This document shows, piece by piece, positions 22,706-53,819 of a DNA stretch of 64,000 nucleotides (within the stretch, counting starts at the first letter, position 1; the number at the start of each line of letters is the position of its first letter). Below the pieces are notes generated by a model. That model was not told the DNA's origin, did no database searches, and saw only the letters and a list, made by a program, of their open reading frames with translations. Both the position numbers and the translations under genes were made by a program. The DNA is from the human T2T-CHM13v2.0 reference genome, Homo sapiens. The stretch is taken from assembly GCF_009914755.1 (NCBI RefSeq), contig NC_060948.1; one strand, 5' to 3'.

Positions 22706-23058
22706 AGATCAAAGAGGGGAAGGGGGTGGGTTAAATTGTGGTTGCTTAGAAGGAATACAATCTAGTGTTCAGTAGCCCAGGATGATTACACTTAATAATG
22801 ATTTATTGTATATCTGAGAAGAATTAAAACAGCGAAGGTGGAATGTCACTCATACTAATAAGTGATATGCCAGACTCAGTGGCTCACAGCTATAATCACA
22901 ACACATTGTGAGGCCAAGGAAGGAGGATCACTTAAGACTGGAAGACCAGTCTGAACAATATATGGAAGCATTGTCCCTACCACACACACACACAAACACA
23001 AGAGCTGAGCATGGTGGTGTGTGTCTGTAATTCCAGCTAAGTGGGATTTTTCTTTTAC

Positions 23059-23172
23059 CTATCCTTAATTCCATAACCACCATCTCTTGACAACATATGG
23101 TCATTTCTCCATGAAGTGATTGGCTTCTCGAGTGGAGGACCTCCATAATTCTCTCTTCCATTAAATTTAATG
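23059..23172 (-). pseudogene. RBMY: RBMY-family pseudo-exon
   Basis: The minus strand encodes [33 protein letters not shown] (RBMY: [33 protein letters not shown]). It is flanked by ttttag and gtaaaag splice sites; 114 bp. Confidence 0.88.
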
Positions 23173-26845: not shown

Positions 26846-26990
26846 TTAAAAGTAGTAAGGGTACTATCAATAACATTGGCACATTTAACCTAAGCACATT
26901 TTACAAACATTTTTACGTCAACTACAGTTCATAGTTAATTAGGTGATAGGGAGATATTGGAAGAAGTATTTTTGAAGTCACATGTCTTTA

Positions 26991-32430: not shown

Positions 32431-35400
32431 TTTTACTCTGAGTGTAATTCTGGCTATTGGGAGAACAAACTGTAAGCTGCAAGTGGGTATCAGAATCAAG
32501 CAGAGAGACCAAACAAATGATGATGGCTTCAACAAATGTAATGAGTATGTAGGTGATTTTTTATTGTTTGGAACCTTCCTCTAATTTCTTTCTAGTATTT
32601 GATTTTACTGTTTTAACCAGAGTTAGAATTATTTAAGCCTAAGTGTTATATGGAACTCTTGAAGTATGTACCATGTAATATTTATTACTGCCCATCAAGT
32701 AATATAAAATTTACATGTGATAGAAAAGTATAACTTATAATTTATTATATTTTAATTTAATATTTGTATAAGCCATATAAGCTATATAACCAATTTATAG
32801 ATATAAGTATTCATAAACATATACAAGATATGTATCTGTGTATTTTATAATTTGTATATGTATTGCATACATAAGTAATTTATGCATTATACATTGTAAT
32901 CCATGTATATTACATGTCTATAAGTATTTCTAATATATATGGTTAACTTTGTTTCCAACCATTCAAGTACAGCAAAGTCGTCCTGTTCTTTGCCTCTTTG
33001 GCAGTCACTGGGAACTGGTAGGCCTGGTCAGTTTTACCTCAGAAGCCTGTTATGACCCTGTTCTTTTCATCAGGACAGCCCAATACATATCTTGAATGAG
33101 ATGGCTTATCAAGGCATCCCAGAAACCACTGGGTCCCATTTTTTTCTCTACCTTGCAATTTTATCCTGGAGTAGAAGATAGTCCACAAAACACACTTAGC
33201 TCTAACACAGGCTCTGTCACTTTGCTTTTTCATGGATTCTGAGAACAAACATGTAGGAGAAGATTAAGCACTTCCTCAGTGAACAGAAGGCACTGGAACC
33301 TTCATTCAATGTTTTTTTGGTTCAAATAATAGAGACTATTTTATGCCAATAGACCATTACACTTTCAAAGTGGTCACCTCTCTTCAGCTAGCAAATTCCC
33401 AATGGTATGATCCTGGATTTCTCCTGTTGCCAAACTGTGGGATCATCCTGATACAGCTGAATGCTGGGGTACCCCAGAAATGGACAAATCTCAATATTTC
33501 TTTTTTTCTGGACCCCAGAACTCCCAAACAGCTATTAAACCTATACCCTGGAATTTTCCTCAGAAAAATACAATAAATTATAAATATTAAGCTGTAACTG
33601 ATTCAGCAAGATTCTAGATTAATACATTAGCTAGTATAATTAGGCTTCATACTCTGCAGTTAGTTAATGCTGGTAGATGGTGGTTTCTCTTTTCAAGTGG
33701 GATAGGTGGATCTCAAGTTCCTGTTAAGAGGGATACTCATCTGTCTCAAGTTCAATCTATTAATGTTCCATCTCATGGGCAACTTGTAGCTAGACCTCGG
33801 CTAGAAATTACCCCTGAAGTTGAAGCTTGGAAACAATTTTTATCTTATAAAACAGGAACAGTGATGTAGATTCAATCCAGGGAAGAGAGTAATAGAAAAA
33901 AAAATGTATCACGTAGTGCATAGAGCTAACCCTGGCACTAAACTGGTAACTTACAACTAGATTCCACCAGTACCTTTCATAGATAATAAAATTGAACTAT
34001 GGGCTCATTCATCCCTCGATGAAGATTGATCTCAGCATACTACAGTAACCCATACCATTGAAACATGGTGTCAGCTAGTTTTAAATGTATTTGGATCCTC
34101 AAGAAACTATAGAAAGCTCAGATGGATACTGGATTCTCACTGAACCTGAGTCCACTCAGTTCTGGATTTCTTCTATACTGCATACTCTTCATGTGCTAAG
34201 TCAAAAGGTGACAATATTAAGGCTTGGGCGCAACAGAAAACCAGTATGATCAGGCCCTCAAATCAAATCAATAGATGTAGTCCATTTAGTAAACATGAGG
34301 CTATTATACTCAAACCCCTGATGCAGAAATGGATCTTAATACATCCTATTATGAATATAATTGAGCCCTTCCTTCACTCCAAAGTTGACATGATCAGACC
34401 CTGAAGTCAGCCTAAAACAGCCATAGTCCTTACCTGGATCTAGCCAGAATCTCAATCAGGAAGACTCTTGATTCACTTGAGAGCTGATATGATTAAACCA
34501 TTGTTACAAACTGAAACTGAAAGAATGAGACTCGGCATTCAGCATAAATTTAAAATATTGAGGCCTAGAGCCCAGACTCAAGAATGGAAAGAAAAACACT
34601 GGACCCAACCAGAAGCAGATCCAGTTAGGTACTGGTCCCAAACTGGGATGGAAACAGTGGTACCCAGGCCCCAACCTGGAGATGATAGATCCAGACCCCG
34701 AAATCACACTGAAGCTGATATCATCAAACTTTTATTTCAGTCTCAATCAGAGACAGTCACACAGTGGAGAGAACCAGTAACTCTGACAGATCACCATTGG
34801 ATACAGTCTGAAACTGAAATAGTGATGTTTTGGAACCAACCTGTGGCTGATAAGTTAAAAGACTGGATACAACATGAAGCTTATGCATTTAGACTCTGGG
34901 ACAAGTTTGAAAGTGTTAAAGTCAAATTGTGGACCCAAGCTGAAGATGATACTTTGAGACCCTGGAATCAGAAAGACATTGGTGTAATTGACCCCTGGGT
35001 ACAAGGTAAAGCTACTGTATTAACACAGTGGATGCAGGGAGTGTCTCAAGAATTACATCCATGGACACAATCTGAAACTCACACAGTCCCACTGTGGACC
35101 CAGAATGAAACTCCAATAATTTCATATCTTGGACCAAGATGTTAGCAGATACACTCACAACATGGACAAAGGCTGAATTTCAAGGGTAAACATCCTGAAG
35201 ACAGTCTGAAACTGATCCAATCATACTGTGAACTATTGCCAAATCTCCAACAGTAAATCTCTGGACACGCTCTGTATCGAATGAAGTCACATGTTGGAAC
35301 CAAGAAGAATTTCCAGCCTTATTTCCCTTGACAGAGTCTTATGGCTAAGACAGTCACACCATGGATCCAGGATAGATTTCCAACAATGAATCCCTGGGAA

Positions 35401-35950
35401 AAACTACAGCTGAAACCGTCATACAATTGATCCTTGATGAAATGTCACCAATAAATCCAAGGACAAAATTGCAGCCTGAATATCTAGAAGGAAATACCCG
35501 ACTCCCATCTGAATTTAATCCAGTCTCATTGTGGACCATGGCTTATTTGCCAGCAGTAAATTACTGGATACAGTTTGATACTGAAGCAATAACACTATGA
35601 ATCCAGGTTGAGTCTTCAGCAAAACATTCCTGGAAACAGTTGGAAATGGATATAATCCCACTAGGGACACATGCTGAATCACTAGTGATGAATTCATGGA
35701 TAAACTCTATCTGATATGATCATGTGTATCCAGGCTGAATCACTATTATTAAATCCTTGGACAGAGTCTGAAACTGATATAGTCACAACATGGATTCTTG
35801 TTGAAACTCTAGGAGTAAGTCCCTGGTTACCTGATATATTCCTACCATGTACCCATGCTGAACATCCACAGATATCTTGGACTCAACCATGGATTATCGC
35901 TGAAACTCCAGCAATGAATCCCTAGAGAAAGGCTACAGCTGATATGGTCC

Positions 35951-37914
35951 TATCAGGGGAATTTCAGCCAGATATCGGGTGAAATTCACCCCCAATATTT
36001 CACATACCTTCTTTTCTATTTTCCCTAAGTGTCGGCCACTCTGAGAAATAAAGAGACAGAGTACAAAAGAGAAATTTTAAAGCTGGGTGTCCGGGGGAGA
36101 CATCACATTGGCAGGCTCCATGGTGCCCCCAGAGCCATAAAACCAGCAAGTTTTTATTAGTAATATTCAAACGGGTAGGGAGTGTGCGAATAGCATGTGG
36201 GTCACAGAGATCCTGTGCTTCACAAGGTATATAGAATATCACAAGGCAAATGGAGGCAGGGCAAGATCACAGGACCAGAGGACCAGGACAAAATTAAAAT
36301 TGCTAATGAAGTTTCAGGCACACATTGTCATTGATAACATCTTATCAGGAGACAGGGTTTGAGAGCAGACAACCGGTCTGACCAAAATTTATTAGGCAGG
36401 AATTTCCTCTTCCTAATAAGCCTGGGAGCACTACAGGAGACTGGGGCTTATTTCATCCCTACAGCTTTGACCATAAAAGACGGCCACCCCCCGAAGTGGC
36501 CATTTTAGAGGCCTACCCTCAGGGACACATTCTCTTTCTCAGGGATGTTCCTTGCTGAGAAAAAGAATTCAGCGATATTTCTCCCATTTGCTTTTGAAAG
36601 AAGAGAAATATGGTACTGTTCTGCCCAGCTGACCGGCAGTCAGAGTTTATCTCTCTTGTTCCCTGAACATTGCTGTTATCCTGTTCTTTTTTCAAGGTAC
36701 CCAGATTTCATATTGTTCAAACACACATGCTCTACAAATAATTTGTGCAGTTAACGCAAACATCACAGGGTTCTGAGGTGACAAACATACTCCGCAGCTT
36801 ACAAAGATGACAGGATTAAGAGATTAAAGTAAAGACAGGCATAGGAAATCACAAGGGTATTGATTGGGGAAGTGATAAGTGTCCATGAAATCTTCACAAT
36901 TTATGTTCAGAGACTGCAGTAAAGACAGGCGTACATCAGAGAAATGCAAATCAAAACCACAATGAGATACCATCTCACACCAGTTAGAATGGCAATCATT
37001 AAAAAGTCAGGAAACAACAGGTGCTGGAGAGGATGTGGAGAAATAGGAACACTTTTACACTGTTGGTGGGACTGTAAACTAGTTCAACCATTGTGGAAGT
37101 CAGTGTGGCAACTCCTCAGGGATCTAGAACTGGAAATACCATTTGACCCAGCCATCCCATTACTGGGTATATACCCAAAGGACTATAAATCATGCTGCTA
37201 TGAAGACACATGCACCCATATGTTTATTGCGGCATTATTCACAATAGCAAAGACTTGGAACCAACCCAAATGTCCAACAATGATAGACTGGATTAAGAAA
37301 ATGTGGCACATATACACCATGGAATACTATGCAGCCATAAAAAATGATGAGTTCATGTCCTTTGTAGAGACATGGGTGAAATTGGAAATCATCATTCTCA
37401 GTAAACTATCGCAAGAACAAAAAACCAAACACTGCTTATTCTCACTCATAGGTGGGAACTGAACAATGAGATCACATGGACACAGGAAGGGGAATATCAC
37501 ACTCTGGGGACTGTTTTGGGGTGGTGGGAGGGGGGAGGGATAGCATCAGGAGATATACCTAATGCTAGATGATGAGTTAGTGGGTGCAGCGCACCAGCAT
37601 GGCGCATGTATACATATGTAACTAACCTGCACAATGTGCACATGTACCCTAAAACTTAAAATAAAAAAAAATTAATTAAAAAAAAATAATAATTATATGT
37701 ATTTATGATTAATATGCTTTCTTTCACCTGACATTTGGTCAATTTTGTTAATTTCTTTATTAAAAAGTTTAAAAATAAAAAAAAGACAGGCGTAAGAAAT
37801 TATAAAAGTATTAATTTGGGGAACTAATAAATGTCCATGAAATCTTCACAATTTATGTTCTTCTGCCGTGGCTTCAGCTGGTCCCTCCATTCAGGGTTCC
37901 TGACTTCCGCAACA
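35951..37914 (-). mobile_element. MER11 (HML-8/HERV-K11) solo LTR inserted in the giant exon
   Basis: The minus strand starts TGTTGCGGAAGTCAGGAACCCTGAATGGAGGGACC. TSD gtcc(ta) at ~35947 and 37915. Removing the LTR restores ADMVLPRNQAEF, a repeat unit. Confidence 0.88.
36934..37781 (+). mobile_element. Young 5'-truncated L1 (L1PA2-like) nested in MER11, with a probable 3' transduction
   Basis: Intact ORF2 C-terminus (...SLIGGN*) and 3' UTR gagatcacatggacacaggaaggggaatatcac. TSD aaagacaggcgta at 36921-36933 and 37782-37794. Confidence 0.93.
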
Positions 37915-40900
37915 GTCCTACCAAGGAATCAGGCTGAATTTATAGAAGGAAATGCATGGACACAGTCTGAAACGTATACAGTCAAAGAGTTGATCCTGAA
38001 TGATTCTCTAGCAGTAAATTCACAGACATAGACAATAGCTGATGCAGACAAGCTGTGGACCAAGCCTGAATTTCCAGCCATAAATCTCTGTACAAAGTTT
38101 CTAGGTGATAGCACATACCATGGATTCAGGATGCCTCTCCAGCAATGAATCCATTTACACAGTATCTATCTTATACAATCAAACCATGGGACCAAGATGA
38201 GTCTTCAGCAGTAAAACTCTGTACACTACCTGAATTTGATAACATTATCCTGTGGATACAAGCCAAGTCTCCAACAGTAAATCTGTGCATAGAGGATGTT
38301 ACTTCCACAGTCATACCATGGGCCCAGGCTGTATCTCCAGCAGAAATTCCATGGACACAGCCTATACCTTCGATAGTCATAGCTTGGACCCACGTTGAAT
38401 ATCTATCAGTGAATACCTGGACAACCTCCATAGCTGATAGTATCACACTATAGAAAGGGGCTGAATTAACAGCAGGATTTCCATGAATACTGCCTTGGGC
38501 TGCTACTATCACACTGACGGCACAGTCTGAATTTCCAGCAGGAAATCTTTGGACACAGCCTGTGTATGATACAGACACATTATGGCCTCAGGCTGAACCT
38601 CCAGTAGTAGGGTACTGGACAGAACCTGTAGCTGATACATTTCGTGGACTCAGTTTGAATTTTTAACACGAAAGCCTTGGATCAAATCTGTATCTGATAC
38701 ACTCATACCATGGACCCAGGCTGAGTCTTCAGCAGTAAAGCATTTGACAAGGGCAATAGGTTATACAATCAAACTATGGAACCAAGTCAAATCACCTGCC
38801 ATACATCTCTGGAAACAATATGAAACTGATATCCTCACACAGTGGACCAAGACTAAATGTCCAAAAGTAAATGCCTGGACACAGCCTATACCTGCTACAG
38901 TTAGTTATACCACAGAACCAAGCAGGTAAGAGTAGCAGTAAATCCCTCCACAGAGCTTGAAGCAGAAATTGTCTTACTGTGGACTCAGGCTGATTCTACA
39001 ATCAATAATCTCTGTACACAAACTCTACTGATAGATTGAAACCATTGGCTAAGAATGTTTATGTAGCAGTAAATCCATGGAGCCAGTCTAAAACTGAGAA
39101 AGTTACATCATGGACCCAGGATATGTTGCCAGCAATAAGTCACTTAACAGTGGCTGTGACTGGTATAGTCACACTGCAGTACATGGCTGTATTTCTAATA
39201 ATAATTCCCAGGGCAGAGGCTCTAGCTGATACAGTCATAACATGGACACAGACAAAATCTTCAGCAATCAATTTCTGGTTACAACCTGTACCTGATACAG
39301 TCACACTATGGACCTAAACAAAACATCTAAGTAATCACTTGGAATGAGGCTGAATTTCCAGCTGTAAATCCCATGATGAAGTCTAAGTCTCCAATTGTAA
39401 ACATCTGGACAGTGTCTGAATCTCCAGCCCCAGGTCCTCTGTTGCAGGATGAGACTATTGATACAGTCACACCATGGACCCAGACTGAATCTTTGGCAGT
39501 AAATGCCTTGACAAATCCTGTTGCTGATACACTCACACTGTGTACACAGCCTGTAACTCCATCATTAATCTTCTTTTCACAAAGTTTACATGCTACACTG
39601 AAAACAGGGCATCAAACTGAATGTCTACCCATAAATACCTGGACAGAAGCTATAGCTTCCTAAGTTACACTCTGGACCAAGGCTGATTTTCCAGCAATAA
39701 ATACCTGGACACAGCCTGTTTTTTATAAAGCTACAATTTGGGCACAGGCTGTATGTGCAACAGTAAAGGCCTGGACACAACCTTCACCTAATACAACCAG
39801 ATGATGGTCCCAATCTGAATCTGCAGCACTAATTATGTGGATACTGCCTGTATCTGACACACACATAGGATTGATCCAATTTGAATCTTCAGCAGTAAAT
39901 CCCTGATTACTGCCTATATTTAATAAATTATCATTGTGGACCCAGCCTGTATCTCTAGCAGTCAATCGTGGATAGAGTCAATAGTTTCCAAGTCACCCCA
40001 TGGACCAAAGCTTTACTTCTAGCAACAAGTCCCTGGCCACCTCCCATATCTGATATAGTTGCACTGTGGACCCAGGCTGAATCTTCTGCAGTCATTACCT
40101 CCACACAGCCAGTATCTGACAAAATTATACTGTGGCTGCAGGCCCAGTATCCAGTAGGAATTACCTGGACACAGACTGTATCTGATATACTTACATCGTG
40201 GACATATGATGAATCTTCAGCAGAAAATCCAGGGGCATGGGCCATAGTTTCCTCAGTGTTACCATGGACCCAGGATATCCCTTCAGCAGAAAAAGCCTGG
40301 ACACTAACTGTGTCTGAATCAATCATGCCATGATCCCAGTCTGAGTCTCCAGTGGTAAACACATGGACAGAGACCGCAGCTTCCACAGACACAAAGTGGA
40401 CCTATGATGATTTTCCCGCTGCAAATTCTTGTACACAGAGTGATATGGGCTCATTTTGGACAATGCTTAAAACTGAAGCTAAGAAACTCTGGGCAATGCC
40501 TGAAGCTAAATTATTTATAGAATTTCATTACTGTCTCAACCTGATACCACACAACCTTTGATCCAAGATGAAAATCAAGCATCAATTTTACGGACACATC
40601 ATGAAATTGAAAATATCGATGAATGGACCTTGCCTAAATTTGGAACACTTATATCTTGGATAGTGCCTATGCCTCAGGCAGCAAAACCATGGTCCAAACT
40701 TGAAGCTCTAGTTACAGAACTTTGTTTAAAACTGGAACAGAAAAAATAAAACCTTGGGCTCAGCCAGAATTTCAAACATTAAGCACATTTACTCCCTTTG
40801 AACTTGGTAAAATAGAATCCTGGGCCAAACAGAGAACTACAACATTTATAACATGGATCCAATGTGAAACTGATGCCTCCTTCCTGTGTACCCAATCTGA

Positions 40901-43579
40901 AGTAGGTACAATGAGACCCCAGATCATTTCTGAAGCTGCTACAGTAAAACTATGGATCTGGACTGAAACAGGCACAATCCACCCCTGGACTCAAGGTAAA
41001 ACTAATACGATCCTTGTCTGATACACTACTGTATCAGGCTGAAATGCAGGCAGTGAAATGCTTGACCATGCCTGACATTAATACTCTGAGTGCTGGGTTT
41101 CAGACCCAAAACAGTGTAAGAAGAAATGGTACTCAACTTTATTCTCACAGAGTTACTACCCGGATGAAGCCAGAATGGCAAATAATCCAACCATTGAACC
41201 AATCTGAAAAGAATGCAGTCAGACCCTGGACCCAGTCTGAAGGTGATGTTCTGCAACCTTGGATCTATGCTGAAACCAATACAGTCAGACTCTGGGCCCA
41301 TTCTGAAACTGATAAAATAAAACAATGGACTGAGCCTGAATCTCAAGCAATTAGGACCTGACCTGAGGCAGGTATGTTGACAAGTTGGTCCCCAGCTCAA
41401 AGCGCTGCAGTTTGGACCTGGACCAAATTTGAATCTCAAATGACACACTTCTGGACCCAGAATCAAATTAGCATAAATTACCCTTGGGCTCAGCATGTAC
41501 CTGCTACAATCATACAATAGACTTATTCTGAAATTCATCCCTGGACCCACTCTGAAGCCAATACAGTGATAAGATACTGGTTCCAGATTCGAATTCAATA
41601 AGATCTTGGAACCAACCTGAAACTGAAGTATTCCAAATTTGGACTGTAAGTCAAGAAATGAAACCCTGCAACATGACTGAAATTGATACAGTCACATCTT
41701 GCTTATAGACTCAATGTGATACAGTTAGAACCTGGATTCATCCTGAAAGTTAGCTGCTCTCTCCCTGGCCCCAGACTGAAGTTGGTATATTTTGGCCCTA
41801 GACTCAGCAAAGAGTTGCTACATATCCAACCTGGACCCACCTGAAACCCAAGCAGTGAGATCCTGGATCAAGCAGGAAACTGATATAGTCAGATCTTCAT
41901 TTTACATTCACATGAATAAAGGCAGATCATGGGCTTATTCAAAATCTCAAAGAGTCAGTCCCTGGATCCAGCTGGTAGTTGATATAATTCCATCTTTTAT
42001 CCAGTCTGAATCCTTCCTACTAAGATTCTGGCCCAAGGTTCCATCTCCAGTAGTCAAAACATGGACCTTGCTTATGGGAAGAACACTCATATCTTGGATA
42101 CTGCCTGTAACCTAAGCAGACAGACACTGGATCCAGTCTGAAGCTGATATTATTGAATCCTTTGGTGTTTTTAAAGCTGGCATAGTAAGAACCTGGATCC
42201 AGCCTGAAACAGAAATACTAAGACCCAGAACCCATTATAAGGCTGATATAAGTGCATAGTTTTCTCCTCCTGAAATTGAGTCTGAGAGACACTATTAATG
42301 AGTCATTTTGGCTGCTTGTCTAAACGTGCACTCTTTTTGCCTGTAAAAAACTGTTTCTTTCCCAGATCAGTATTTTATCTCTCTGTTAACTGAGATAACT
42401 GCCTCAGAAAGCCAATATGAAATCAATTATCTCCAACCAAGCCAGCTTACAAGCATTTGGCTTCCTGGAAGAGCTGTTTACCAGCACTAAAGCAGGAAAT
42501 TAAAAATTATCCAAATAAAACAATGCCCTGATGTCCCAGGTACCTCTCTTATCTCTCTTTCTTCCTCCATTTTCCTTCCTCTTTCTTATTCTCTTCCATC
42601 TCCATGTACACTGTGCCCTTCTTGTTCCGTCTTTTCTTCTGGTACATTCCCTTCATTCTTCATTTTCCCATCTTGTTCAGTTATTTCTCCTCTTGTCTCC
42701 TCTCCTATTCTCCTTTCCATAGCCTCTTCTGCTAACGCCCTTCAGAAAATATTTTCCTCAACATTTCCTGAAGAGTCCATTCTTTCTCATTCTTTTTCAT
42801 TCTTGCATGCTGCTGCAGCCACACTTTTAACAAAATAACCTCATCTGATGCCTGGACAATCTGGACCCAAGTCTGAACAACAACCTCTTAGGCATTCAGA
42901 ACTCAAATGTTTCCCTGGTTGAGTGTCAACTAGCTGTGATCTGGAAAGAAAGTTTGCAGGCTTTCTGGCTCTTCAGAATAGTTGTTATTTCTCATGAAAC
43001 CACAGGCACCTTTGGTCTAGTCATATGTTTAAGTTATTATACCTGGTACAAAGACTCTTGTTGAACCCTAAAACCACAGTTTGTAAGATCAGAGGTTATG
43101 TCCTCAAACCTTTGCAAAACCAAAATTTATGTTATTGTATGAATCAGCACAGACATCCCAATATTGAGAGAATATCTTATTTTTGCCAGACAGGATTTGT
43201 GGGCTATGTTTTATAAACACAATTCTATTCAGAGAACAGTATTTTAAAGATAGTCTTACTTCTTAGAAAGGATTTATTATTCCACTTGAGGTATATAAAT
43301 ATATACACACATTATTGGATAATAGTATAATATCTTGGATATAAATAATAAGATATATATTTATATATACATTAAATTATTATTTGAAGGAAAAGCATGC
43401 AGATAACCTCTGTAGTATATCTAAACTTGTAGGATGAATAATGTATATTTCCAAGGATTTTCTCAGATTGAAGATACTGAATTTCCAAGCTTATTCCTAA
43501 AAACCTAAAATTAGATTTTAGAAATGGAAGAGTAGTAACACTAATCTCACTCTATTCCATATGTATATTCCTTCTGCAG

Positions 43580-43744
43580 AGTGTGGATTATGCCCTGGCA
43601 ATGTCACCCTCTGTCCCAACTGCTGGGAGTCAGAAATTGGTGAATTCCCTTGGATAGTTGCTGTACCACTTTCTCTCATGTCTGTGCTGGCTCCATACTA
43701 AATGAACAGTGGTTCCTTACTACAGCTAGATGTGCCAATTTTAT
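43580..43744 (+). pseudogene. Protease-like exon (N-terminus of domain B)
   Basis: ctgcag|ECGLCPGNVTLCPNCWESEIGEFPWIVAVPLS, a frameshift, then HVCAGSILNEQWFLTTARCANF|gtgagt. Confidence 0.88.
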
Positions 43745-43834
43745 GTGAGTCTAAGTAATTCATCTTAAGATTAAGATATAATTATAAAACAATAACAACA
43801 TTGAGATTATAAATGAATATATTTCCCTTTATTT

Positions 43835-43840
43835 GTGTGT

Positions 43841-43879
<39 letters not shown>

Positions 43880-44095
43880 AAAGACAGAGAGAAAGATAGA
43901 TAGAGACAGGGTCTTGCTCTGTTGCCCAGGCTGGAGTTCTGTGGCATGATTCAGAGTAGCCTCAAACTACCAAGATTAAGGAATTCTCCTACCTCTGCCT
44001 CCTGAGTACCTGGGACCACAGGCACACACCAATGCATCTGGCTATTTTTTTCAGCAGAATTAAAGTCTTATCATGTTGCCCACCTGTTCTCAAAT
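43835..44095 (-). mobile_element. (GT)n/(GA)n tail plus truncated old Alu
   Basis: gagacagggtcttgctctgttgcccaggctggag...; the Alu breaks off near 44095. Confidence 0.8.
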
Positions 44096-44109
44096 AATCC
44101 TTGAAAATA

Positions 44110-44316
44110 GTTTCTAGAGGAGTATTTGTATTTTAGTGCTTTCCTTTTCTGGCTCCAAGGAGTGACATGACCTAGCCATGGACCCTGGCAACACCAAGGG
44201 CCCATGACTACTTCTGCTTCCATGTCCCTTTCAGTCTACTTCTACAAATGCTTCAGCTTTTATCCCCACTCCCACTTCAATGTGGCCACATTTCATCTCT
44301 CTGCCACAGCCTCAGA
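44110..44316 (+). pseudogene. Remnant exon: end of domain B plus S/T/P linker
   Basis: FSAFLFWLQGVT*PSHGPWQHQGPMTTSASMSLS, a frameshift, then STSTNASAFIPTPTSMWPHFISLPQPQ|gtaagg. Phase 1 matches the next exon. The 5' end is not identifiable. Confidence 0.55.
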
Positions 44317-45733
44317 GTAAGGCTCAAAAACCTGGTAGGACAAGTAAAGGAAGAAGAAAATGGAAATATAAAATAATAGAGAGAAGGAAATGGGAGCTAA
44401 AGCTCTTCCTGAGAAATGCATGAGTTTTTTATCTACCAAATCATAGAAATTATTTTCTTTTTGGCTTACAAAGGCATCTCATACTTGATATATGATACAA
44501 TTCCCAGAGTATCCCCATAGATTACTCTGATATAGAACATATAACATGATTATTATACTTATCTTAAATGTATATTCTGATACTACATAAATACAATGGA
44601 CTGATCAAATTCCCATGGCAAAAGATGAACTGGGTTATCATTAAGACACACTCTCCTAATACAAAGACATTTCTTTACTACCACACAGAAGCTTACATTT
44701 GTAATAGAGTTATTTTAAATTAAGTATATTTTAAGTTAAAGATATGATATTTGGAAACAGCATAGTTGGTAAGTAATGAGATGTAGGTGACGGTGTACCA
44801 GACTGCATTACATTGGGATTATCAGTTTCTCCCTTCCCCTGGCTGCTAGAAAACCTACCAGAATATTAGCAATGGCTATTTCACATTACTGTCTATCCTC
44901 TTATTTTCTTGGAAATTGAGACATCTCTTTCGGTCTCATCAATTAAACATGCTCTTAACCACAGCTATTTTATACTTAACACCCATTGCCATAGCTACGG
45001 TGAATAATACATTTAAAACATAAAGGAGGCCATAATTATTTGCTCACATCCGCCAAAGTCTAATTCAGAGACAATTACATATAAGATCTTAGTTATGCTT
45101 CCAATTTCATCTCTAGTTGCTTACCCCTTCTATAGACAGATTATCTTCACCATTTTTCTCTCCCTATTTATATATTGATGAGTATATCTTCCACTCAATT
45201 TTCTGAGGAACTCTCAAATGATTTTAAAAATATGAGCTCTTTCCTGAAACTCAGACTTGAATTTTCTATTTAAAATATTGGTTTGGTATCTTACTAACAT
45301 TATAAGTTTATGAAGATAAGCCCTCTCCAATTTAGAGACAGGTGCTTTATCTCCAAATTTTTCATTATTTATCTAATATCTTCAAATCATTGCATTTTTT
45401 GTTGCCTATCTACTTCAGTGACTTCTAAGTAGCTAAAATCATAGATATATAAATGTTGCAATGGGGGAGAAAGCTGGAATGACTCCCAGTATTTTGATTA
45501 AATAAACTTAAGCTAGGACTTAAAGAAACTATGATCTTGGAAAGACAATAAGAGGCATACTTATTTTCAAGAAAAATTCATGAACACAGAAGAAGCAGAA
45601 GTTTGTCTTTGTTAGTCATATTTAACAATACTGACTCAAATAGCAGAAATAGGAGGATTTAAAACTTTAAAAAATGGTCTACAAATGGCAATTCTATTTA
45701 AATTAGCACAGTTAGCTTATTATTCCTCCTCAG

Positions 45734-45861
45734 CTTCAGCAGATCAGATTTCTCTTGAATACGCCATGCCTTGGAAGGCTGGGATCAACAGCTTTGGCAG
45801 TCATGTCTGCCATAGTTAGCAGCTCTTGGGTTCTCACAGCTGCCCACTATGTTAGCAACGT
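45734..45861 (+). pseudogene. Protease-like exon (N-terminus of domain C, His motif)
   Basis: cctcag|SADQISLEYAMPWKAGINSFGSHVC, a small deletion, then IVSSSWVLTAAHYVSN|gtaag. Confidence 0.85.
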
Positions 45862-46181
45862 GTAAGATTGTGCCTGCCTCTTCTCAACTGTATAACTCAT
45901 TATCCCATAATTACATTGCTGATGGTGTCTATGTCCAAATTCACTTCTATAATGCATGACCATCTCACTTATACAGATAACTTTTTTTAGGCTAAAAAGA
46001 AATTGTCTCACTGTGTTTGGCTTATAGTACCTCTGTTAGTTAATTCCTCTGCAATCCCATTGTCTATGGACTCTTTATTCATAGATTTCTGATTTCTCCG
46101 AAGATGAGCTAGGGACCTTGTGTATCATGACTAAAGCAATATACTGGAAAGCCTGATGTAGACTTAAGGTTGAGGTTTTCT

Positions 46182-46991
46182 TTTTTTTTAACTTTTTAAA
46201 TTATACCTTAAGTTCTAGGGTACATGTGCACAATATGCAGGTTTGTTATATATGTAAACATGTGCCATGTTGGTGTGCTGCACCCATTAACTCATCATTT
46301 ACTTTGGTATATCTCCTAACGCTATCCCTCCCCACTCCCCCCACCCCATGACAGGCCCTGGTGTGTGATGTTCCCCTTCTTGTGTCTAAGTGTTCTCATT
46401 GTTCAGTTCCTACCTATGAGTGAGAACATGTGGTGTTTGTTCTTTTTTCCTTGGGATAGTTTGCTGAGAATGATGGTTTCCAGCTTCATCCGTATCCCCA
46501 CAAAGGACATGAACTCATCCTTTTTTATGGCTGCATAGTATTCCATGGTGTATATATGCCACATTGTCTTAATCCAGTCTATCTTTGATGGACATTTGGG
46601 TTCATTCCAAGTTTTTGCTGTTGTGACTAGTGCCACAATGAACATATGTGTGTATATTTCTTTATAGCAGCAAGATTTATAATCTTTCATGTATAATCCC
46701 AGTAATGGGATGGCTGGGTCAAATGGTATTTCTAGTTCTAGATCCTGGAGGAATGAACAGACACTTCTCAAAAGAAGACATTTATGCAGCCAACAGACAC
46801 AGGAAAAAATGTTCATCATCACTGGCCATCAGAAAAATGCAAATCACAACCACAATGAGATACCATCTCACACCACTTAGAATGGCAATCATTTAAAAGT
46901 CAGGAAACAACAGATGCTGGAGAGGATGTGGAGAAATAGGAACGCCTTTACACACTGGTGGGACAGTAAACTAGTTCAACCATTGCGGAAG
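46182..46991 (-). mobile_element. Short L1PA with twin-priming inversion (switch at ~46750), intronic
   Basis: An antisense 3' UTR/ORF2 end is followed by a sense [10 protein letters not shown]...VQPL piece. TSD core aggttttct at 46173 and 46996. Confidence 0.9.
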
Positions 46992-47043
46992 TTTCAGGTT
47001 TTCTAAAGAATGTACTATAATAAATATTTGCCTATGCATACAG

Positions 47044-47291
47044 GAATCCTGAAGACACTGCTGTGATTCTGGGCCTGAGGCACCCTGGGGCACCAATGAG
47101 AGTTGTGAAGGTGTCTACCATTCTACTGCATGAGAGATGCCAGTTGGTGAATGGGGCAGCAAGGAATGACCTGGCATTGCTACTCCTCCAAGATGTCCAG
47201 ACTCCCATTTGGCTCTCAGCACCCTTGGGCTATCTGAAGAACCTGAATAGTTCAGAATGCTGGCTGTCTGTGCCACAGATTATTATACCAG
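47044..47291 (+). pseudogene. Protease-like exon (domain C, Asp motif), open frame
   Basis: catacag|NPEDTAVILGLRHPGAPMRVVKVSTILLHERCQLVNGAARNDLALLLLQDVQTPIWLSAPLGYLKNLNSSECWLSVPQIIIP-G|gtcag. Confidence 0.88.
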
Positions 47292-47734
47292 GTCAGCAGT
47301 GAGTTTTCTTATTAGGGTAGCAGTTCTACAAAATGAGGTTCATATTTTTAATATTATGGTTCAAGGAAGAAGTATGATCACAATTGTATAAATTACTAAT
47401 TATAAGATATTTAATGCACATAAAAAACCCAATAGGAAATTTGTTTTCATGTTATAAGTTGATGGTTCTGATGATAACTTCATAGGATTTTAGATCTGAA
47501 AACAATTATATGAGCATCTTTCTCTGTACAGTCAATTTTGTAAACTAAAGTAGAGATGATTTGCTTTCCAACTCTTTGCTGACTAAAAAAAAGGAAAAAG
47601 AAGTTTTTGTTTTGTTTTGTTTGTTTTTCTCTCTTTATGAAAAAGAAGCTGAACTTGACTTGGAATTTGGAATTCCGTAAGTAAAAATTTACTTATTACT
47701 TTTGAAGGGTGGCATTTAAAAAGTGATTAAAGAG

Positions 47735-48330
47735 TGACAATGCTGTCCACAGTGTCTCACTCCTGTAATTCCAGCACTTTGGGAGCTTGATCTAGGAGAA
47801 CCCTTTGGGCCCAGGAATGTGATACCCATTTGGGCAATGTAGCAAGACTTCATCACTAAACAACAACAACAAATAGCCTGTTGTGGTGTTGCACACATGT
47901 AGTCCCAGCTACATGGGAGGCTGAGACAGGAAGATAGCTTGAGACCTGGAGGTTGAGGCTGCAGTGTGTGAAGATGGTGGCAATGCACTCCAACTTTACG
48001 TGGGTGACCACGCAAGAACTTGTCTCAAAAAAAGGGGGCGCTACTGTGGTGGTTCATGCCTGTAATTCCAGTATTTTGGGAGGATGAGGCCAGTGAATCA
48101 CCTGAAGTCAGGAGTTTGAGACCAGTCTGACCAACATGGGGAAAACCCATCTCTACTAAAAATATGAAATTAGCTAGGAGTGGTGGTGTGTTCCTGTAAT
48201 CCCAGTTACCCAGGAGGCTGAGTCAGGAGAATTGCTTGAACCCAAGAGGCAGAGGTTGCAGTGAGATCAGGCCACTGCACTCGAGACTGAGTGACAGAGT
48301 GAAACACCATCCCCAACCCCCAAAAAAATC
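47735..48330 (+). mobile_element. Two tandem Alus (AluJ-like 47735-48032; AluS-like 48035-48330)
   Basis: Two consecutive two-arm Alu patterns. Confidence 0.85.
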
Positions 48331-48539
48331 AAGGACTAGAAAGCGAATGAAATACATAAACATGTCTTGTAAAATGGTAATGGTGACAAAATAAACTGAA
48401 TTTATTTGTATAGGTTATATGTACAAGTTTAAAGTAATGATGACACAGTGATAAGACAGTTCATGGTTTTATCTCAATACTTAGTGTTTAAATGTAACAT
48501 ATGTTCCTTAGGATGGTTATACTCCATTTTTCTTCCTAG

Positions 48540-48673
48540 GAGAGAATGATGAGTTTCTAGAAATGTTAAAGGTGCAAGTGATGGAAGCTTCCAGCTGTGC
48601 CCACCTGTACCCTGACATAGGCAGTTCCATTGTTTGCTTCATTACTCAGGCCAAAGACTCAAATGCAAATGTG
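48540..48673 (+). pseudogene. Protease-like exon (domain C), open frame
   Basis: ttcctag|ENDEFLEMLKVQVMEASSCAHLYPDIGSSIVCFITQAKDSNANV|gtacag. This is the C...C loop exon of trypsin genes (phase 1 in, phase 0 out). Confidence 0.82.
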
Positions 48674-49211
48674 GTACAGAGTCAAATGTTTTTTCTATCT
48701 ACATAATAGAAAATATAACTTTGTCCCTGTGTAAAAGGGTATACAGCATATGCTTAAATGAAAAATTTAAGTGAATCATTGATCAACAGGAAACCATTTT
48801 AAAAGTCTTTAATTACAGAAAAAAAATCTCTGAAAAAAATTTGTTGTTAATCTCTGAGTTTTCTTACATGGGTTGTTAATCTCTAGCCATACTAAATAGC
48901 TAGCATGCTGCACTTGAAACAAATTAGACATTATATATAATTCCCATATTCTAATAATAGTATCTTCACACCTCAAAGTTGAAAACAGTCTAACCTTTTC
49001 CTATTTCCCCAATTAAATAACTTTTTAAGGCTTAATCCTCTGATTTTTTTGTAGTAATATTTTTGAATGTATTTGATCAGGATGATTTTCTTGTGTACTT
49101 ATCTGATGTCTCACTTTCTTCTAAATACATATTTTATTATCCATTTATTAGATCTAAGTTTAAGATGTTGGAACAGGAATTTAAATCCAAATTCTGCATT
49201 TGAATTTACAG

Positions 49212-49603
49212 GAATCAGTGAGTCCAGGAAGTGCCATTATGTGCAGACCAATATCTGGCAATGGCAGTTGGAGACATATAGGCTTCAATAGTCTCAAAGC
49301 CCTAGCTACTACAGTGAGTTCACACTTCTCCTGGATCTTATCTACTTCAGCAAAAGAAGGCCACCCACTAAACCAGGCCCTTATGCCTTGAGCGCAAACT
49401 CCTAAGTCCTCTAGTCTCCTTAAACAGCCAACCACACTGCCACTTTCTTCAATAATAATTACTGCAGCCCTGAGACTTTGGTAGCCTAGTGACTATAACT
49501 AGTGATGCTACAGTCTGCTCACAGTATGATAAAACACCAGAACAACAAAAACAAAATATTGACTTAAGCCTCCTAAAATATCTCTAAATATACCTTCAAT
49601 AAA
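49212..49603 (+). pseudogene. Terminal exon (end of domain C, 3' UTR and poly(A) signal)
   Basis: ttacag|ESVSPGSAIMCRPISGNGSWRHIGFNSLKALATTVSSHFSWI... TGA at 49389 is possibly premature, with the next in-frame TAG at 49482. AATAAA at 49598-49603. Confidence 0.8.
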
Positions 49604-50079
49604 TATGCTTTTTCTACATAACAACTGCTTTCTACTTACTTCCTGAACTAATGCTTGGCCTTGGATTGTTTTCATTCTTCAGATTGATTCAGAAGTGTCT
49701 ATTTAACATGAAAGTGAATACAGAATTTCATGTGTCAGCAAATAAAAATTTCAAAATGATGCAAAATACAAATGTGAAATTGAATTTGTGAACTTTACTA
49801 TGCTTTCAAATTATGTATTCATACCTACCCACTCACACAATTTTTTATAACTATCTGCATGTTCTCCTCAGGTGGGAGAAAAACAGCATCAGAATTCTTG
49901 AATAATTTATGAAAGACAGAATGACGACACTATACAAGGTTTAACCTATTCACAATACTGTAGTGAATGAAAACATTACATTTAAAATCCTACCAAGTGT
50001 TGAGTAAGTAAATAAAATATGTGATTTCAATCACTCTAAAATATGTGTACATGAAGAAAATAGAACAATGATTAAAACC

Positions 50080-50547
50080 TCAGCATAACCAGGCGACTTT
50101 TCTCCCACGCGCCGGCCTGGACCCACTTTCCCCAGGCCACTCCCGCTGCCCTCGCCCCAGCAGCCAGAGAATTCTCCGGATCTGCAATATTCCGTACCAT
50201 CTACCTGGCTTGCGTAATGAAGTGAGACGTTTCATGTGTTCCTTGTGGGTCAATGGCTTGCCACACTCAGGATGTCAGTTAGGGCACAGGGCTCACATGC
50301 CAACATTTCCAAAGGTCACGCAGCCCGCGTGTGCCTGGATGCAGCGCTACCTGGCACTAGCTCTGAGGGCTTCTCAGAGTAGGCTTCCCCCGGGAGGCTG
50401 GGACTGCAGGCCAGCCTTGGTTGGTGCCGCCCAGGGAGATGCGCACCGCCTCGCACTGATTGGCCGCAGGGGGAGGCTGGCGGTCTTGGCGCGGCTCCAG
50501 GTGCCCTTTGAGTGCAGTCCGTTAGGTGGCGCCTGGAAGCCAGGTGC
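50080..50547 (+). promoter_or_regulatory. GC/CpG-richer TSPY upstream region
   Basis: GC and CpG content rises abruptly just 5' of the TSPY ATG. An inverted CCAAT (ctgattggcc) lies at ~50457. Confidence 0.55.
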
Positions 50548-51015
50548 ATGCGCCCTGAGGGCCCGCCCACCCACAGGCTACAGAAAGGGCAGCGCAGGGT
50601 TCCTGTGCTATGGGTCGGGCTGCACAGGCGGTGGTCTATGGGAGTCCGGAGAAGGACACCGTCTTCAGGGTGCACCGTCTTCACTCTGCCCGAGGCGCAG
50701 AGGGAGGAGGCAACCTTGAAGCAGGAGACAGTGCTGGTGTTGGATGACATAATGGCGGAGGTGGGGGTGATGGCCGAGGAGGAGGCCCTCGTGGAGCGGC
50801 AGAAGGACCAGCGGGCACAGCCTGGCCCTGGGCCCATGACCCCAGAGTCTGCACTGGAGGAGCTGCTGGCCGTTCGGGTGGGGCTGGAGCTGGTTAATGC
50901 CCAAGCCAGGAAGGCCTTTTCTCGGCAGCGGGAAAAGATGGAGCGGAGGTGCAAGCCCCACCTGGACCGCAGAGGGGCCATCATCCAGAGCATCCCTGGC
51001 TTCTGGGCCAATGTT
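50548..51015 (+). pseudogene. TSPY: TSPY-family exon 1 only (truncated pseudogene)
   Basis: MRPEG...LDDIMAEV...[18 protein letters not shown]...[41 protein letters not shown]|gtatcc. No downstream NAP-domain exons were found. Confidence 0.95.
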
Positions 51016-53819
51016 GTATCCTTTTCAGTGTTTCTTCTGCCTTTCTAGTTGAGAGGTGCTCTTGGGGAAGTGTAAGTAACTTACGGGCAGCTCGGCATCT
51101 ATCAATTTCTGAGAAACTTATACAAGTCTCAGCTAAACAGCTGGCACTGGACCACTGCCCTTTCAGCTGCCTGTTGCTGACTTCTTTCGTTAGATAATAT
51201 CCCCCAGGCAGCAACTGCTTGTGTCACCCTGCCTCCACTTGATATCCTAAAGACCAATATCTACTGTTTAAAACACTTTAAGTCTTAGATATAGCATAAA
51301 GGGTTTATGGGATACAAAACAACAGTCGGACACAAGAGATTGAGTCATTCTTTTTTAAACTTTTGTTTGTAAGTATTTTGTAGTTTATCTTATCGGAAGT
51401 GAGAGACCAAGAGAGTAAAAACACTGCTTCCTTTTCATCCACCCTAATGCATCTCAAACTTATGTCTCATCACTTGCTTTGTATGAGATGTCTGTATATG
51501 AACTCCCATAAAATGTTGCATAATTTATACAAGCAAATGGTCCCATGAAACAATATTAATTTTTAAAGATAAATCCACATTCAAAAGTAAAGATTTTCAA
51601 AACCAGAAATAATTTACAGAAATGCTAAAAAATGTGGCATAATTATCATAATGTGGAAATGGAAATTCAGACAAACTTTCACATTGTTACTGAGAGTACT
51701 TTTCCTTGAAGACCTACAGTTCTGGCTATCTGCATTCCAGGAATATTTTTCTTATTTTTTTATCATCTCATAACCAAATGGCCAACTAGGTTAGATTTTC
51801 CATGTTACAGTGTTTGACTGAAGAGTCAATAACCCTTGCAACAGAGAACATCCTTAGAAATTAGTTGACCAAAGTCTCAAGTTTCCCAAGGCCAGTCCTT
51901 AGGGTTCAATCTCAGACTGTAATAGTGTTTTCTGCAGAACAGTGTCTTTAAGTAGGCAGTTATTTTCACATTTATAATCTGTTGGTGGAAACTCTGGTCC
52001 TAAAGTAAGAGCAGAAGATGCATCTCTCCTTTCATGACAAGTTTGACACTCAGGAGATGATAAACTTATAGGAAAAAAATTATTTTCTCCATTTTTCTTT
52101 GGCCATTTATTCCCAGAAGAAATTAGAATAAATATATGAATGATATTTAAAAACATTTTGGAAAAAATTAAAGAATATATTAAGAAACAAAACTTTTGCC
52201 AGTATCAGTCTTCGACAAAAAAGTTAACCATTTTAACTATAAAGTATAAATGTATTTACAAATAAAGTGATGCATAGGGAAATGTTTCTTGCATTGTACA
52301 CACTTTCTCCAGTGATGTCCTAGCCACTCATTTAAAATGGGTCATTGATTGAATTACAACTATAACCTTAATGCAAATAGTACAGTAGAAAGTTTTTTAA
52401 AACAGAACACATGTACACAATAGTTGGTCTTCCAGTTGCACAGTTTCTTTTGTATGCATGTGTGTATGTCTATGTAATTTTATATACTTATAGAGATTAG
52501 ATTTTGGGCAAGCAATTTAGAAGTAACCAGATTTTCTTTGTAATAAGAAGGAAAATGTTTAAATTGAAATTTTAGTTGAACAGTAAAACTGTATAAGAAT
52601 TTACACTGCTCAGGGAAAAGATGTATTGTGTTTTGCAGACTGAAAGAGTTCTTTCCTGAGTAACCCAGTGTTGGTATTCACTGCAGAAATAGATTTGTTT
52701 TGGTAGACCCCTGTAGCCAGCTACCTGCAGAGAAGGAAATCCTGCTGAACAGAATTATAAATAGAATAGTTAAATATTCTTTCATTTCAGTGAAGCGTTC
52801 ACATACGATATTCTCTTTTATTCATTTATAAACATTTATATTTAATACATTTTCCAAAAAATAAAGTAATTATAAAAATTAACAAGAGATTTGTATATTC
52901 CTTATTTAAAATTTTTAGCCTATTCAAATATAAGAAGTCCACTCTGAAATACCTGAAGATGATATATGAAATGAATAAGAAAAGAAAATACAGCAGAATG
53001 TACCAGATGTTTTTTGTGTGTTGGATGTACATATATCTGTTAGCTTTTAGTGGCAGACAGAGTGCAGTCTACATAATTTTATTCATAATAGATGCCTATG
53101 CATCATACATTCACACATAAATATTATTTCTCTGAAGATTGAAATAGAAAGCTAGGAGAATACAACATGACACATATGCTGAATTACATATAAGCAAGTG
53201 TGAATTATGTAGTTAAATGATCTCTTCACCAGTCTTCTTCTCACTCTCTCACTGGGTAGTCTAAGGATTAATTAAAGTTCCTCGGCTCTTTCAAGCTAAG
53301 AAACAGTATGTAAGTGCTATGCATTATCATGGTAACACAAGAGGGAGGTATAAGTGATTTATAACTTCACAGGCTCTGTGAAATGTGTCTAGCCTGATAG
53401 GTTTTTCTAACAGTGTTTTATGGATTGGAAAGTGCTTATCAGATTTGAAGATGGAATTTGCTCTATTAAAATCATGCTAATCTGCAAAACCAATCTTTGT
53501 TCTATATGTATGTAGAGTGATGTTTCTCAAAATAGAAGAAAACTTGGGATATGATTTCGGAGGTAATATAATAAGGTAGAATGGTGACATGAATTATAAC
53601 TTATCTATTATTGTTTGACTCAGCTGATGCTCTCTTAATTAGGGCAACTGAAGTCTAATTAATTTGCATAAGGTAGCCATCCCATTTTTATACTTTTAAA
53701 GACAGTCAGGAGATATCACCGTTTCCACAAAGCTTATATAGATTTTATTAGCATGTTTCAATTACGTATCACTGCAATAATGTCAATTCTGTAATGTAAC
53801 ATATTATTTCCTTTAGTAG

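What the first reader, a model, noticed from the sequence alone, without database searches (positions are those of the whole stretch)
32964..49603. Cryptic giant multi-domain protease-like gene (PRSSLY-like) reconstructable exon by exon
Seen: the giant exon (to 43005), then exons 43580-43744, ~44110-44316, 45734-45861, 47044-47291, 48540-48673 and 49212 onward. Junction codons fit (G|AG, A|CT, GT|G, G|GA, phase 0), matching trypsin-gene intron phases. The ORF track shows only unrelated-looking fragments. Established (recalled): PRSSLY is a testis-specific Y gene related to PRSS55 with an enormous exon. Inference: this is its decayed ape copy, which is likely poorly annotated.
Basis: partly seen in the sequence, partly recalled or inferred. 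Interest (0 to 1): 0.75.

Follow-up and report, generated by a model that had tools for sequence, protein, structure and literature searches.

The report
Dead PRSSLY gene copy on Y
This stretch of the human Y chromosome is a broken, unannotated copy of PRSSLY, a testis protease-like gene that many other mammals still keep intact; that humans lost the gene is already published, so the find is real but largely ordinary.

Summary
It has a giant exon of about 8 kb built of degenerate 33-bp units, a remnant of a first trypsin-like domain and a complete second one.

It is a pseudogene: many stops and frameshifts, a 1.96-kb insertion with an L1 fragment in the giant exon, and an 890-bp deletion that removed most of domain 1.

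[quoted passage not shown] 2022, PMC9178871). However, a 31-base stretch taken from near the start of their human model lies exactly in other paralogs, at about 5.98, 10.15 and 10.24 Mb.

The window copy is one of 14 diverged copies, all on the Y. In addition, 45 TSPY array units each carry the last PRSSLY exon.

The copies sit in blocks with RBMY-like and TSPY-like pieces. They diverged nearly neutrally (dN/dS 0.54-1.17). The giant exon already carried frameshifts before the window lineage split from its nearest paralog. Passive co-amplification of a dead or dying gene is therefore the best reading.

Interest is low to moderate.

The parts
32964..35960 (+). Giant exon, 5' part. The start is not verified. 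The degenerate 33-bp (11-codon) periodicity runs from about 33,500. The longest open frame is 233 aa (34,444-35,145).
   Evidence: lag-33/66 identity 0.36 against 0.26 background; Y-specific sequence from 32,543.
35960..37915 (+). Insertion of about 1.96 kb into the giant exon, absent from the B, Y22.34, D and AZFc paralogs. It holds an L1 3' fragment with its poly-A (36,801-37,710).
   Evidence: L1 ORF2-like frame 36,923-37,462; periodicity lost from 36,000 to 37,800.
37915..43005 (+). Giant exon, 3' part. It is periodic up to about 42,400. The last 1.1 kb is collinear with the sheep and bat proteins. The donor follows 43,005 (junction codon G|AG).
   Evidence: stops at 42,113, 42,257, 42,488 and 42,836, and a 1-bp insertion at 42,905, seen only in this lineage.
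43580..43744 (+). First exon of trypsin-like domain 1 (the region that holds His57 in active proteases). It carries a 4-bp deletion shared only with the twin copy at 9.95 Mb.
44139..44316 (+). Remnant of the last exon of domain 1 plus the linker. Just upstream, an 890-bp deletion private to this copy removed the equivalents of sheep residues about 1330-1498. A 2-bp deletion lies near 44,236.
   Evidence: (890 bases present in the twin and in the other paralogs, absent here).
45734..45861 (+). Domain 2, exon with His57 (codon 45,845-47). It has an 8-bp deletion between 45,809 and 45,810. Cys58 is replaced by Tyr (45,848-50).
46168..46947 (.). L1 insertion in the intron, present only in this copy and its twin.
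   Evidence: no aligned bases in the 12 other copies for 46,501-47,000; masked in the supplied table.
47044..47291 (+). Domain 2, exon with Asp102 (codon 47,168-70). The frame is open, with 79-85% amino-acid identity to most orthologs.
48540..48673 (+). Domain 2, fourth exon. The frame is open.
49212..49484 (+). Last coding exon. Pro stands where active proteases have Ser195 (49,224-26), as in intact orthologs. A premature TGA lies at 49,389-91 (Trp in the other copies). The ancestral stop TAG is at 49,482-84.
49598..49603 (+). AATAAA polyadenylation signal.
23058..23279 (-). Flank: RBMY-like exon (Pfam RBM1CTR) inside a stretch with more than 25 copies on the Y.
   Evidence: (E 3e-10, 40.4 bits, cut-off 22).
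50077..51102 (+). Flank: TSPY-derived piece (TSPY17P in the supplied table). Three other paralog lineages (B, Y22.34, Y7.35) have the same piece about 4.2 kb beyond the PRSSLY 3' end.

Best explanation
The span is a dead, intron-containing copy of PRSSLY, the Y-linked 'protease, serine-like' gene.

**The intact gene in other mammals.** It encodes a very long, repeat-built N-terminal part followed by two trypsin-like domains.
- Neither domain can be catalytic. Domain 1 has lost all three triad residues. Domain 2 keeps His57 and Asp102 but has Pro at the Ser195 position.
- The protein is therefore a pseudo-protease.

**The window copy.** It cannot make that protein.
- The giant exon is cut into dozens of short frames and split by a 1.96-kb insertion.
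- Most of domain 1 is deleted.
- Domain 2 has an 8-bp deletion and a premature stop.

**The family.** It is one of 14 copies on the Y.
- It lies in one arm of a large inverted duplication on Yp, which I recall as IR3. Its twin is at 9.95 Mb.
- Inferred: the copies arose because the PRSSLY locus lay between RBMY-like and TSPY sequence. It was copied passively with those blocks at a time when the giant reading frame was already broken, at least on the lineage leading to this copy.
- Any remaining activity would be low-level testis transcription, which is reported for human PRSSLY pseudogenes but was not tested here.
For: **Identity.**
- 22 hits at E 1e-35 to 1e-25 and 68-85% identity. 21 of the 22 carry PF00089. 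One is named PRSSLY.
- the window maps collinearly onto six orthologs.
- the long orthologs have two trypsin stretches.
- the human copies form one clade within the family (SH-aLRT 99).

**Pseudogene state.** Searches list the lesions.

**Triad.** One search prints the ortholog sequences. The motifs were read by eye against recalled trypsin motifs.

**Family.**
- 14 copies of the Asp102 exon, all on contig 24.
- giant-exon sequence at 12 of those loci.

**Near-neutral divergence.**
- the exon/intron divergence ratio is 0.69-1.33 in the 26 non-twin pairs.
- dN/dS is 0.54-1.17 (mean 0.83) in 21 pairs over 262 codons.

**Broken before the last split.** Searches find 7 frameshifting indels on the branch shared by this lineage and lineage B in 6.2 kb of giant exon. 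There are 14 private to this lineage and 10 private to B.

**Block context.** (RBM1CTR exon).

**Print.** PMC9178871.
Against: - No disabling lesion is shared by all lineages in the 262 codons of domain 2. At least five separate inactivations are needed there. The common ancestor of the copies therefore still had an open domain 2.
- None of the 11 lesions of this lineage in the 3' part is shared with lineage B. With a short shared branch, only about 2 to 4 shared lesions are expected, so this is weak evidence.
- Two of the seven shared indels (+1 at 34,099, -4 at 34,188) compensate each other. Small indels in a 33-bp repeat can also be alignment artefacts.
- Single window exons give no Pfam trypsin hit and no PDB hit. 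The family assignment of the window itself therefore goes through the orthologs.
- Transcription was not testable.
Confidence: 0.9

Rival explanations
1. PRSSLY was amplified while still intact. On this reading it was a multi-copy testis gene family in anthropoid ancestors, like TSPY and RBMY, and then died copy by copy.
For: - No lesion is shared by all lineages in domain 2.
- The shared lesions that exist define sub-groups only: a 2-bp deletion in AZFc x4 plus Y8.55; one stop in Y7.35, D and Y7.94.
- The AZFc copies and Y22.34 each have only one disabling lesion in domain 2.
- The point stops of this lineage in 42,000-43,005 are private.
Against: - dN/dS averages 0.83, and exons diverged about as fast as introns.
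- Seven frameshifting indels lie on the branch shared by this lineage and B in the giant exon.
- Every copy sits in a block with RBMY-like or TSPY-like sequence, which explains the copying without selection on PRSSLY.
- Ancestral states could not be inferred here.
Confidence: 0.2
2. The locus still does something: as a testis non-coding transcript, or through a short protein from a surviving frame.
For: - The paper reports low-level transcription of human PRSSLY pseudogenes (PMC9178871: 0.17 TPM in one testis sample).
- An AATAAA survives at 49,598-603.
- Domain 2 is unusually well kept: 2 lesions, and the shortest protein branch among the copies.
Against: - The published model is another paralog, so there are no expression data for this copy.
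- Divergence is near neutral.
- The longest frame is 233 aa of repeat with no Pfam family.
- An 890-bp deletion is tolerated in this copy but is absent from its twin.
Confidence: 0.07
3. It belongs to another protease family, or is a retrocopy or a chance run of frames.
For: The sources name the orthologs inconsistently: 'serine protease 52-, 53- or 55-like', 'elastase 2A', 'TMPRSS9-like'.
Against: - Introns sit at the expected places with GT/AG sites.
- E-values reach 1e-35.
- The same proteins carry the giant N-terminal part.
- One record is deposited as PRSSLY.
- No autosomal locus matches better than E 6.5e-5.
Confidence: 0.01

Closest known systems
PRSSLY of other eutherians (Hughes et al. 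2022, BMC Biol 20:133, PMC9178871); here P0012 sheep, P0005 and P0014 bats, P0020 Peromyscus
   Same: - Y-linked, with a giant coding exon without known domains followed by small exons for trypsin-like domains.
- Same exon order and junction phases.
- 57-91% amino-acid identity per aligned exon piece; the best-kept exon is 68-85% identical to the 22 proteins.
- Pro at the Ser195 position.
   Different: - Here the frame is broken throughout.
- Domain 1 is largely deleted.
- An L1-bearing insertion splits the giant exon.
- The gene is present in 14 copies, whereas the paper states it is single-copy in species with good assemblies.
The published human PRSSLY pseudogene model (Additional file 9 of PMC9178871)
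   Same: Same gene family and same chromosome. Collinear with window 34,990-35,400.
   Different: - A 31-mer from near its start matches exactly at 5,979,552, 10,151,931 and 10,244,114 (paralogs B and D), and not in this copy.
- Lineage B is about 0.10 substitutions per site away from this copy.
- I saw only about the first 400 letters of the model.
PRSS55, named by the paper as the closest autosomal paralog
   Same: Trypsin-like and testis-specific (from the paper).
   Different: - Not confirmed here. A search of the genome with ortholog P0009 gave no chromosome 8 match.
- The best autosomal matches were single His57-region exons on contigs 16, 19 and 3 at E 6.5e-5 or weaker.
- The tool scores only the best candidates, so this is inconclusive.
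Scattered RBMY and TSPY pseudogenes of the human Y
   Same: Old, diverged, Y-only copies spread over Yp and the AZFb/c region. The PRSSLY copies lie next to such pieces.
   Different: RBMY and TSPY still have working copies. No PRSSLY copy examined has an open frame.

Membership tests
PRSSLY | Trypsin-like (S1) domain sequence | tested here: met
   - Orthologs: PF00089 at E 1e-40 with two stretches.
- The window exons align to those stretches at 57-91% identity.
- Direct Pfam scans of single window exons gave 0 trypsin hits, and a PDB search gave only noise. The result is therefore met through the orthologs.
PRSSLY | Very large upstream coding exon without known domains | tested here: met
   - About 8 kb with 33/66-bp periodicity.
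- Collinear and repeat-type tblastn matches to proteins of 1,041-1,823 aa.
- No Pfam family in 4 of its frames.
PRSSLY | Groups with a sequence deposited as PRSSLY | tested here: met
   - P0020 'TPA_inf: PRSSLY [Peromyscus eremicus]' matches every exon in order.
- The tree of 13 human copies and 19 orthologs puts the human copies in one clade inside the family.
PRSSLY | Y linkage | tested here: met
   The window is on chrY (supplied table). All 14 copies are on contig 24.
PRSSLY | Single copy | tested here: not met
   There are 14 copies of the Asp102 exon, and 45 TSPY units carry the last exon. This is a property of intact genes per the paper. It does not bear on descent.
PRSSLY | Open reading frame and testis expression | tested here: not met
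   The frame is broken. Expression is not testable with these tools.
PRSSLY | PRSS55 as nearest autosomal paralog | tested here: inconclusive
   No contig 8 match.
Active S1 serine proteases | Catalytic triad His57, Asp102, Ser195 | tested here: not met
   - Domain 2 has His (45,845-47) and Asp (47,168-70) but Pro at the Ser195 position (49,224-26). The same holds in intact orthologs.
- Domain 1 of the orthologs has none of the three.
- The motif register was set by eye against recalled trypsin motifs.
TTY2 (TTTY2-like) multicopy Y transcripts | Published TTY2L2A and TTY2L12A primer sites within the locus | tested here: not met
   - None of the 4 primers matches the window at up to 3 mismatches.
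- In the genome the forward primers lie 50-190 kb from the nearest PRSSLY copy.

The most novel reading that the evidence does not exclude
The human Y holds the remains of an extinct ampliconic gene family.
- PRSSLY, whose knockout skews the mouse sex ratio, would have been multiplied while still intact, together with its neighbours RBMY and TSPY, in anthropoid ancestors. The copies then died one by one.
- One boundary of the 20.3-kb TSPY array unit was cut inside PRSSLY's second-to-last intron, so its last two exons are fossilised in every unit.
Probability: 0.2. Interest if true: 0.55.

Novelty: new member of a known kind. Interest (0 to 1): 0.3.

Why it matters
**For the gene itself, little.**
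- The loss of PRSSLY in human, chimpanzee and rhesus is published.
- This copy adds an unannotated paralog.

**What may be useful to people working on the Y.**
- The published statement of a single-copy gene does not hold for its human remains.
- Reads and transcripts assigned to 'the' human PRSSLY pseudogene can come from up to 14 loci, which differ by up to about 15-20%.
- The copies mark old RBMY-PRSSLY-TSPY blocks, so they can serve as a dated tracer of how the Yp inverted repeat, the AZFc amplicons and the TSPY array were assembled.
- I found no paper that says this: 23 papers hold 'PRSSLY', and the main text of the key paper contains neither 'TSPY' nor 'RBMY'. Its figures were not visible to me.

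Tried and rejected
**Searches that found nothing or only noise**
- Pfam on 8 single window frames: no trypsin hit, and one chance DUF763 match at E 0.056.
- PDB sequence search with the Asp102 exon: only BMP6 at E about 1.
- Tandem Repeats Finder: 14 short rows and no array for the giant exon, because the 33-bp units are too diverged. Autocorrelation did show them.

**Links considered and rejected**
- TTY2 family. I recalled Makrinou 2001 but did not see it. The primers came from passages of PMC6690235. Rejected.
- CYorf16 as a name for the PRSSLY relic in TSPY units. Rejected: passages of PMC6280758 and PMC3954084 describe it as an antisense frame at TSPY1.
- My first reading that the TSPY17P piece is private to this copy. 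This was wrong. Other paralogs have the piece 4.2 kb further on.

**Checks left open**
- PRSS55 as nearest paralog: no chromosome 8 hit, so this stays open.
- Branch-wise counts of substitutions needed ancestral sequences, which the machine does not offer. I did not do this.
- Complex prediction, structure prediction and the protein atlas were not used. Nothing here called for them.
Full report
**What is there**

Stop-to-stop frames on the + strand between 33.5 and 42.4 kb show a recurring W-x-Q-x-E-type peptide pattern. Further on there are fragments that look trypsin-like by eye.

Single frames give no Pfam trypsin hit and no PDB hit. The 82-aa translation of 47,045-47,290, searched against longer proteins, finds 22 proteins among 66 candidates:
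- E-values run from 9.6e-36 to 8.7e-25 and identity from 68 to 85%.
- All are mammalian.
- 21 of the 22 carry PF00089 and 10 also carry PF09342.
- Four are 1,041-1,823 aa long.
- One is deposited as 'TPA_inf: PRSSLY [Peromyscus eremicus]'.

tblastn of six of these proteins against the window gives one collinear map. Sheep residues map as follows:

| Sheep residues | Window position |
|---|---|
| 912-1272 | 41,843-43,004 |
| 1252-1329 | 43,525-43,745 |
| 1499-1565 | 44,132-44,330 |
| 1563-1606 | 45,739-45,862 |
| 1607-1690 | 47,045-47,296 |
| 1689-1733 | 48,539-48,673 |
| 1734-1822 | 49,212-49,478 |

The phase order of domain 2 is 1, 2, 1, 0. I recall this as the kallikrein/trypsin pattern; I did not check it.

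The gene ends with the ancestral TAG at 49,482-84 and an AATAAA at 49,598-603.

**The giant exon**

Base autocorrelation peaks at lags 33, 66, 99 and 132. Identity is 0.36-0.44 against a 0.26 background, and two control stretches show no such peaks.
- The signal runs from about 33,500 to 36,000 and from 37,800 to 42,400.
- The gap between them is a 1.96-kb insertion with an L1 3' fragment, which the other paralog lineages lack.
- Upstream, 30,593-32,543 is an interspersed repeat with copies on many chromosomes. Y-specific sequence starts at 32,543.

**What the intact protein is**

The long orthologs have two trypsin stretches in Pfam. Read by eye against recalled trypsin motifs:
- Domain 1 has Arg for His57, no Asp102, and Leu for Ser195.
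- Domain 2 keeps His57 and Asp102 but has Pro at the Ser195 position.

The window keeps the same three states in domain 2. The intact gene therefore encodes a pseudo-protease. The paper's main text does not discuss the triad.

**Why this copy is dead**

Lesions seen only in this copy and its twin:
- Stops at 42,113, 42,257, 42,488 and 42,836.
- A 4-bp deletion at 42,283 and 1-bp insertions at 42,345 and 42,905.
- A 4-bp deletion in exon 43,580-43,744 and a 2-bp deletion near 44,236.
- An 8-bp deletion at 45,809/45,810.
- A TGA at 49,389-91.
- An intronic L1 at 46,168-46,947.

The Cys58-to-Tyr change is shared with lineage B as well, so it is not private to this pair.

One lesion is private to the window copy alone: an 890-bp deletion after 44,138 that removes most of domain 1.

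The longest + frame in the giant exon is 233 aa.

**Already in print**

I saw the following of Hughes et al. 2022 (PMC9178871):
- the abstract and outline;
- passages;
- sections 5 and 12 in full;
- supplement passages.

I saw no figures.

[quoted passage not shown] These are transcribed at low level and have truncated frames. [quoted passage not shown]

A 31-base stretch from near the start of their human model lies exactly at 5,979,552, 10,151,931 and 10,244,114, and not in this copy. The window's homologous stretch differs from the model by roughly 10-15% by eye.

**A family, not a single locus**

The Asp102 exon has 14 copies, all on contig 24.
- Twelve of these loci also hold giant-exon sequence.
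- I fetched the other 13 and aligned them.

A DNA tree on 4,031 columns gives two groups, both at 100/100 support:
- the four near-identical AZFc-region copies plus the copy at 8.55 Mb;
- the copies at 22.34 and 7.35 Mb, pair D (5.92/10.23), pair B (5.97/10.16) and pair A (this copy and 9.95 Mb).

A and B are sisters, each about 0.05 substitutions per site from their node. This copy and its twin differ by 0.010.

With a recalled Y substitution rate of about 1.3-1.5e-9 per site per year, the A/B split is very roughly 35 million years old and the deepest split is older. This is an inference, not a measurement.

**Constraint after copying**
- Domain 2 exons diverged about as fast as introns: the ratio is 0.69-1.33 in 26 non-twin pairs, over 2,847 intron and 763 exon columns.
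- dN/dS is 0.54-1.17, mean 0.83, in 21 pairs.
- No lesion in the 262 codons of domain 2 is shared by all lineages, and at least five separate inactivations are needed.
- In 6.2 kb of giant exon, seven frameshifting indels sit on the branch common to A and B, against 14 private to A and 10 private to B. Two of the seven compensate each other.

I read this as a giant frame that was already broken when A and B separated. The state at the deepest node is open.

**Context**
- Window 23,058-23,279 (-) is an RBMY-type exon (RBM1CTR, E 3e-10). The other 57 of the 58 flank frames scanned gave nothing.
- The surrounding stretch has more than 25 Y copies, including arrays with a 23.5-kb period. I recall these as RBMY arrays.
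- Window 50,077-51,102 is TSPY-derived. Three other lineages (B, Y22.34 and Y7.35) carry the same piece about 4.2 kb beyond their PRSSLY 3' end.
- Searching the genome with ortholog P0009 shows the last PRSSLY exon, open and 63-64% identical, in 45 successive 20.3-kb TSPY array units.
- One such unit shares 1.66 kb (83.7% identity) with window 48,235-49,892, that is, the last two exons. In a tree of that piece it is sister to pair D (94/96).

**Verdict**

The kind is already published. This copy is an unannotated paralog of it. The best mechanism is passive co-amplification of a dead or dying gene with RBMY/TSPY blocks.

Noticed in passing
L042 (G000:C24:9136500-9146400), about 9,140,349-9,142,015; the same in 45 units from 8.96 to 9.85 Mb: Every 20.3-kb TSPY array unit carries the last two PRSSLY exons about 4.5 kb upstream of the TSPY piece. 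One edge of the shared stretch lies at an Alu in PRSSLY's second-to-last intron (window 48,235). I found no mention of this in print.
   Followed up: partly
window 23,047-27,000, exon at 23,058-23,279 (-): An RBMY-like pseudogene piece (Pfam RBM1CTR, E 3e-10) is not in the supplied gene table. The stretch matches more than 25 Y loci, including arrays with a 23.5-kb period at 22.37-22.42 and 22.72-22.75 Mb.
   Followed up: partly
window 44,138 against L029: An 890-bp deletion is present in this copy but absent from its 99%-identical twin at 9.95 Mb. It is therefore a recent event and could be polymorphic.
   Followed up: partly
window 42,001-51,000 against L029, L031/L032, L040/L041: The three paralog pairs in the same Yp inverted duplication differ very unequally between arms: about 1.0% for this pair, 0.25% for pair D and 0.02% for pair B. 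The distal D copy also lacks the giant exon. No explanation was tested.
   Followed up: no
window 51,650-54,600: The flank beyond TSPY17P matches an autosomal locus, contig 3 at 149,539,362-149,542,356, at 81% over 2.9 kb, besides many Y copies.
   Followed up: no
proteins P0001-P0022: Public records name what are evidently PRSSLY orthologs inconsistently: 'serine protease 52-, 53- or 55-like', 'chymotrypsin-like elastase 2A', 'TMPRSS9-like', 'brain-specific serine protease 4-like'. Many models start at the Met in the linker before domain 2 and so omit the giant exon.
   Followed up: no
L039 (copy at 7.35 Mb): The first exon of domain 1 in this copy holds a 79-bp insertion that duplicates neighbouring exon sequence.
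   Followed up: no
window 41,026-41,691 (-) and 39,955-40,401 (-): Long antisense frames of 221 and 148 aa lie inside the giant exon. They are most simply a by-product of a 33-bp repeat that lacks stops in those frames. Not tested.
   Followed up: no
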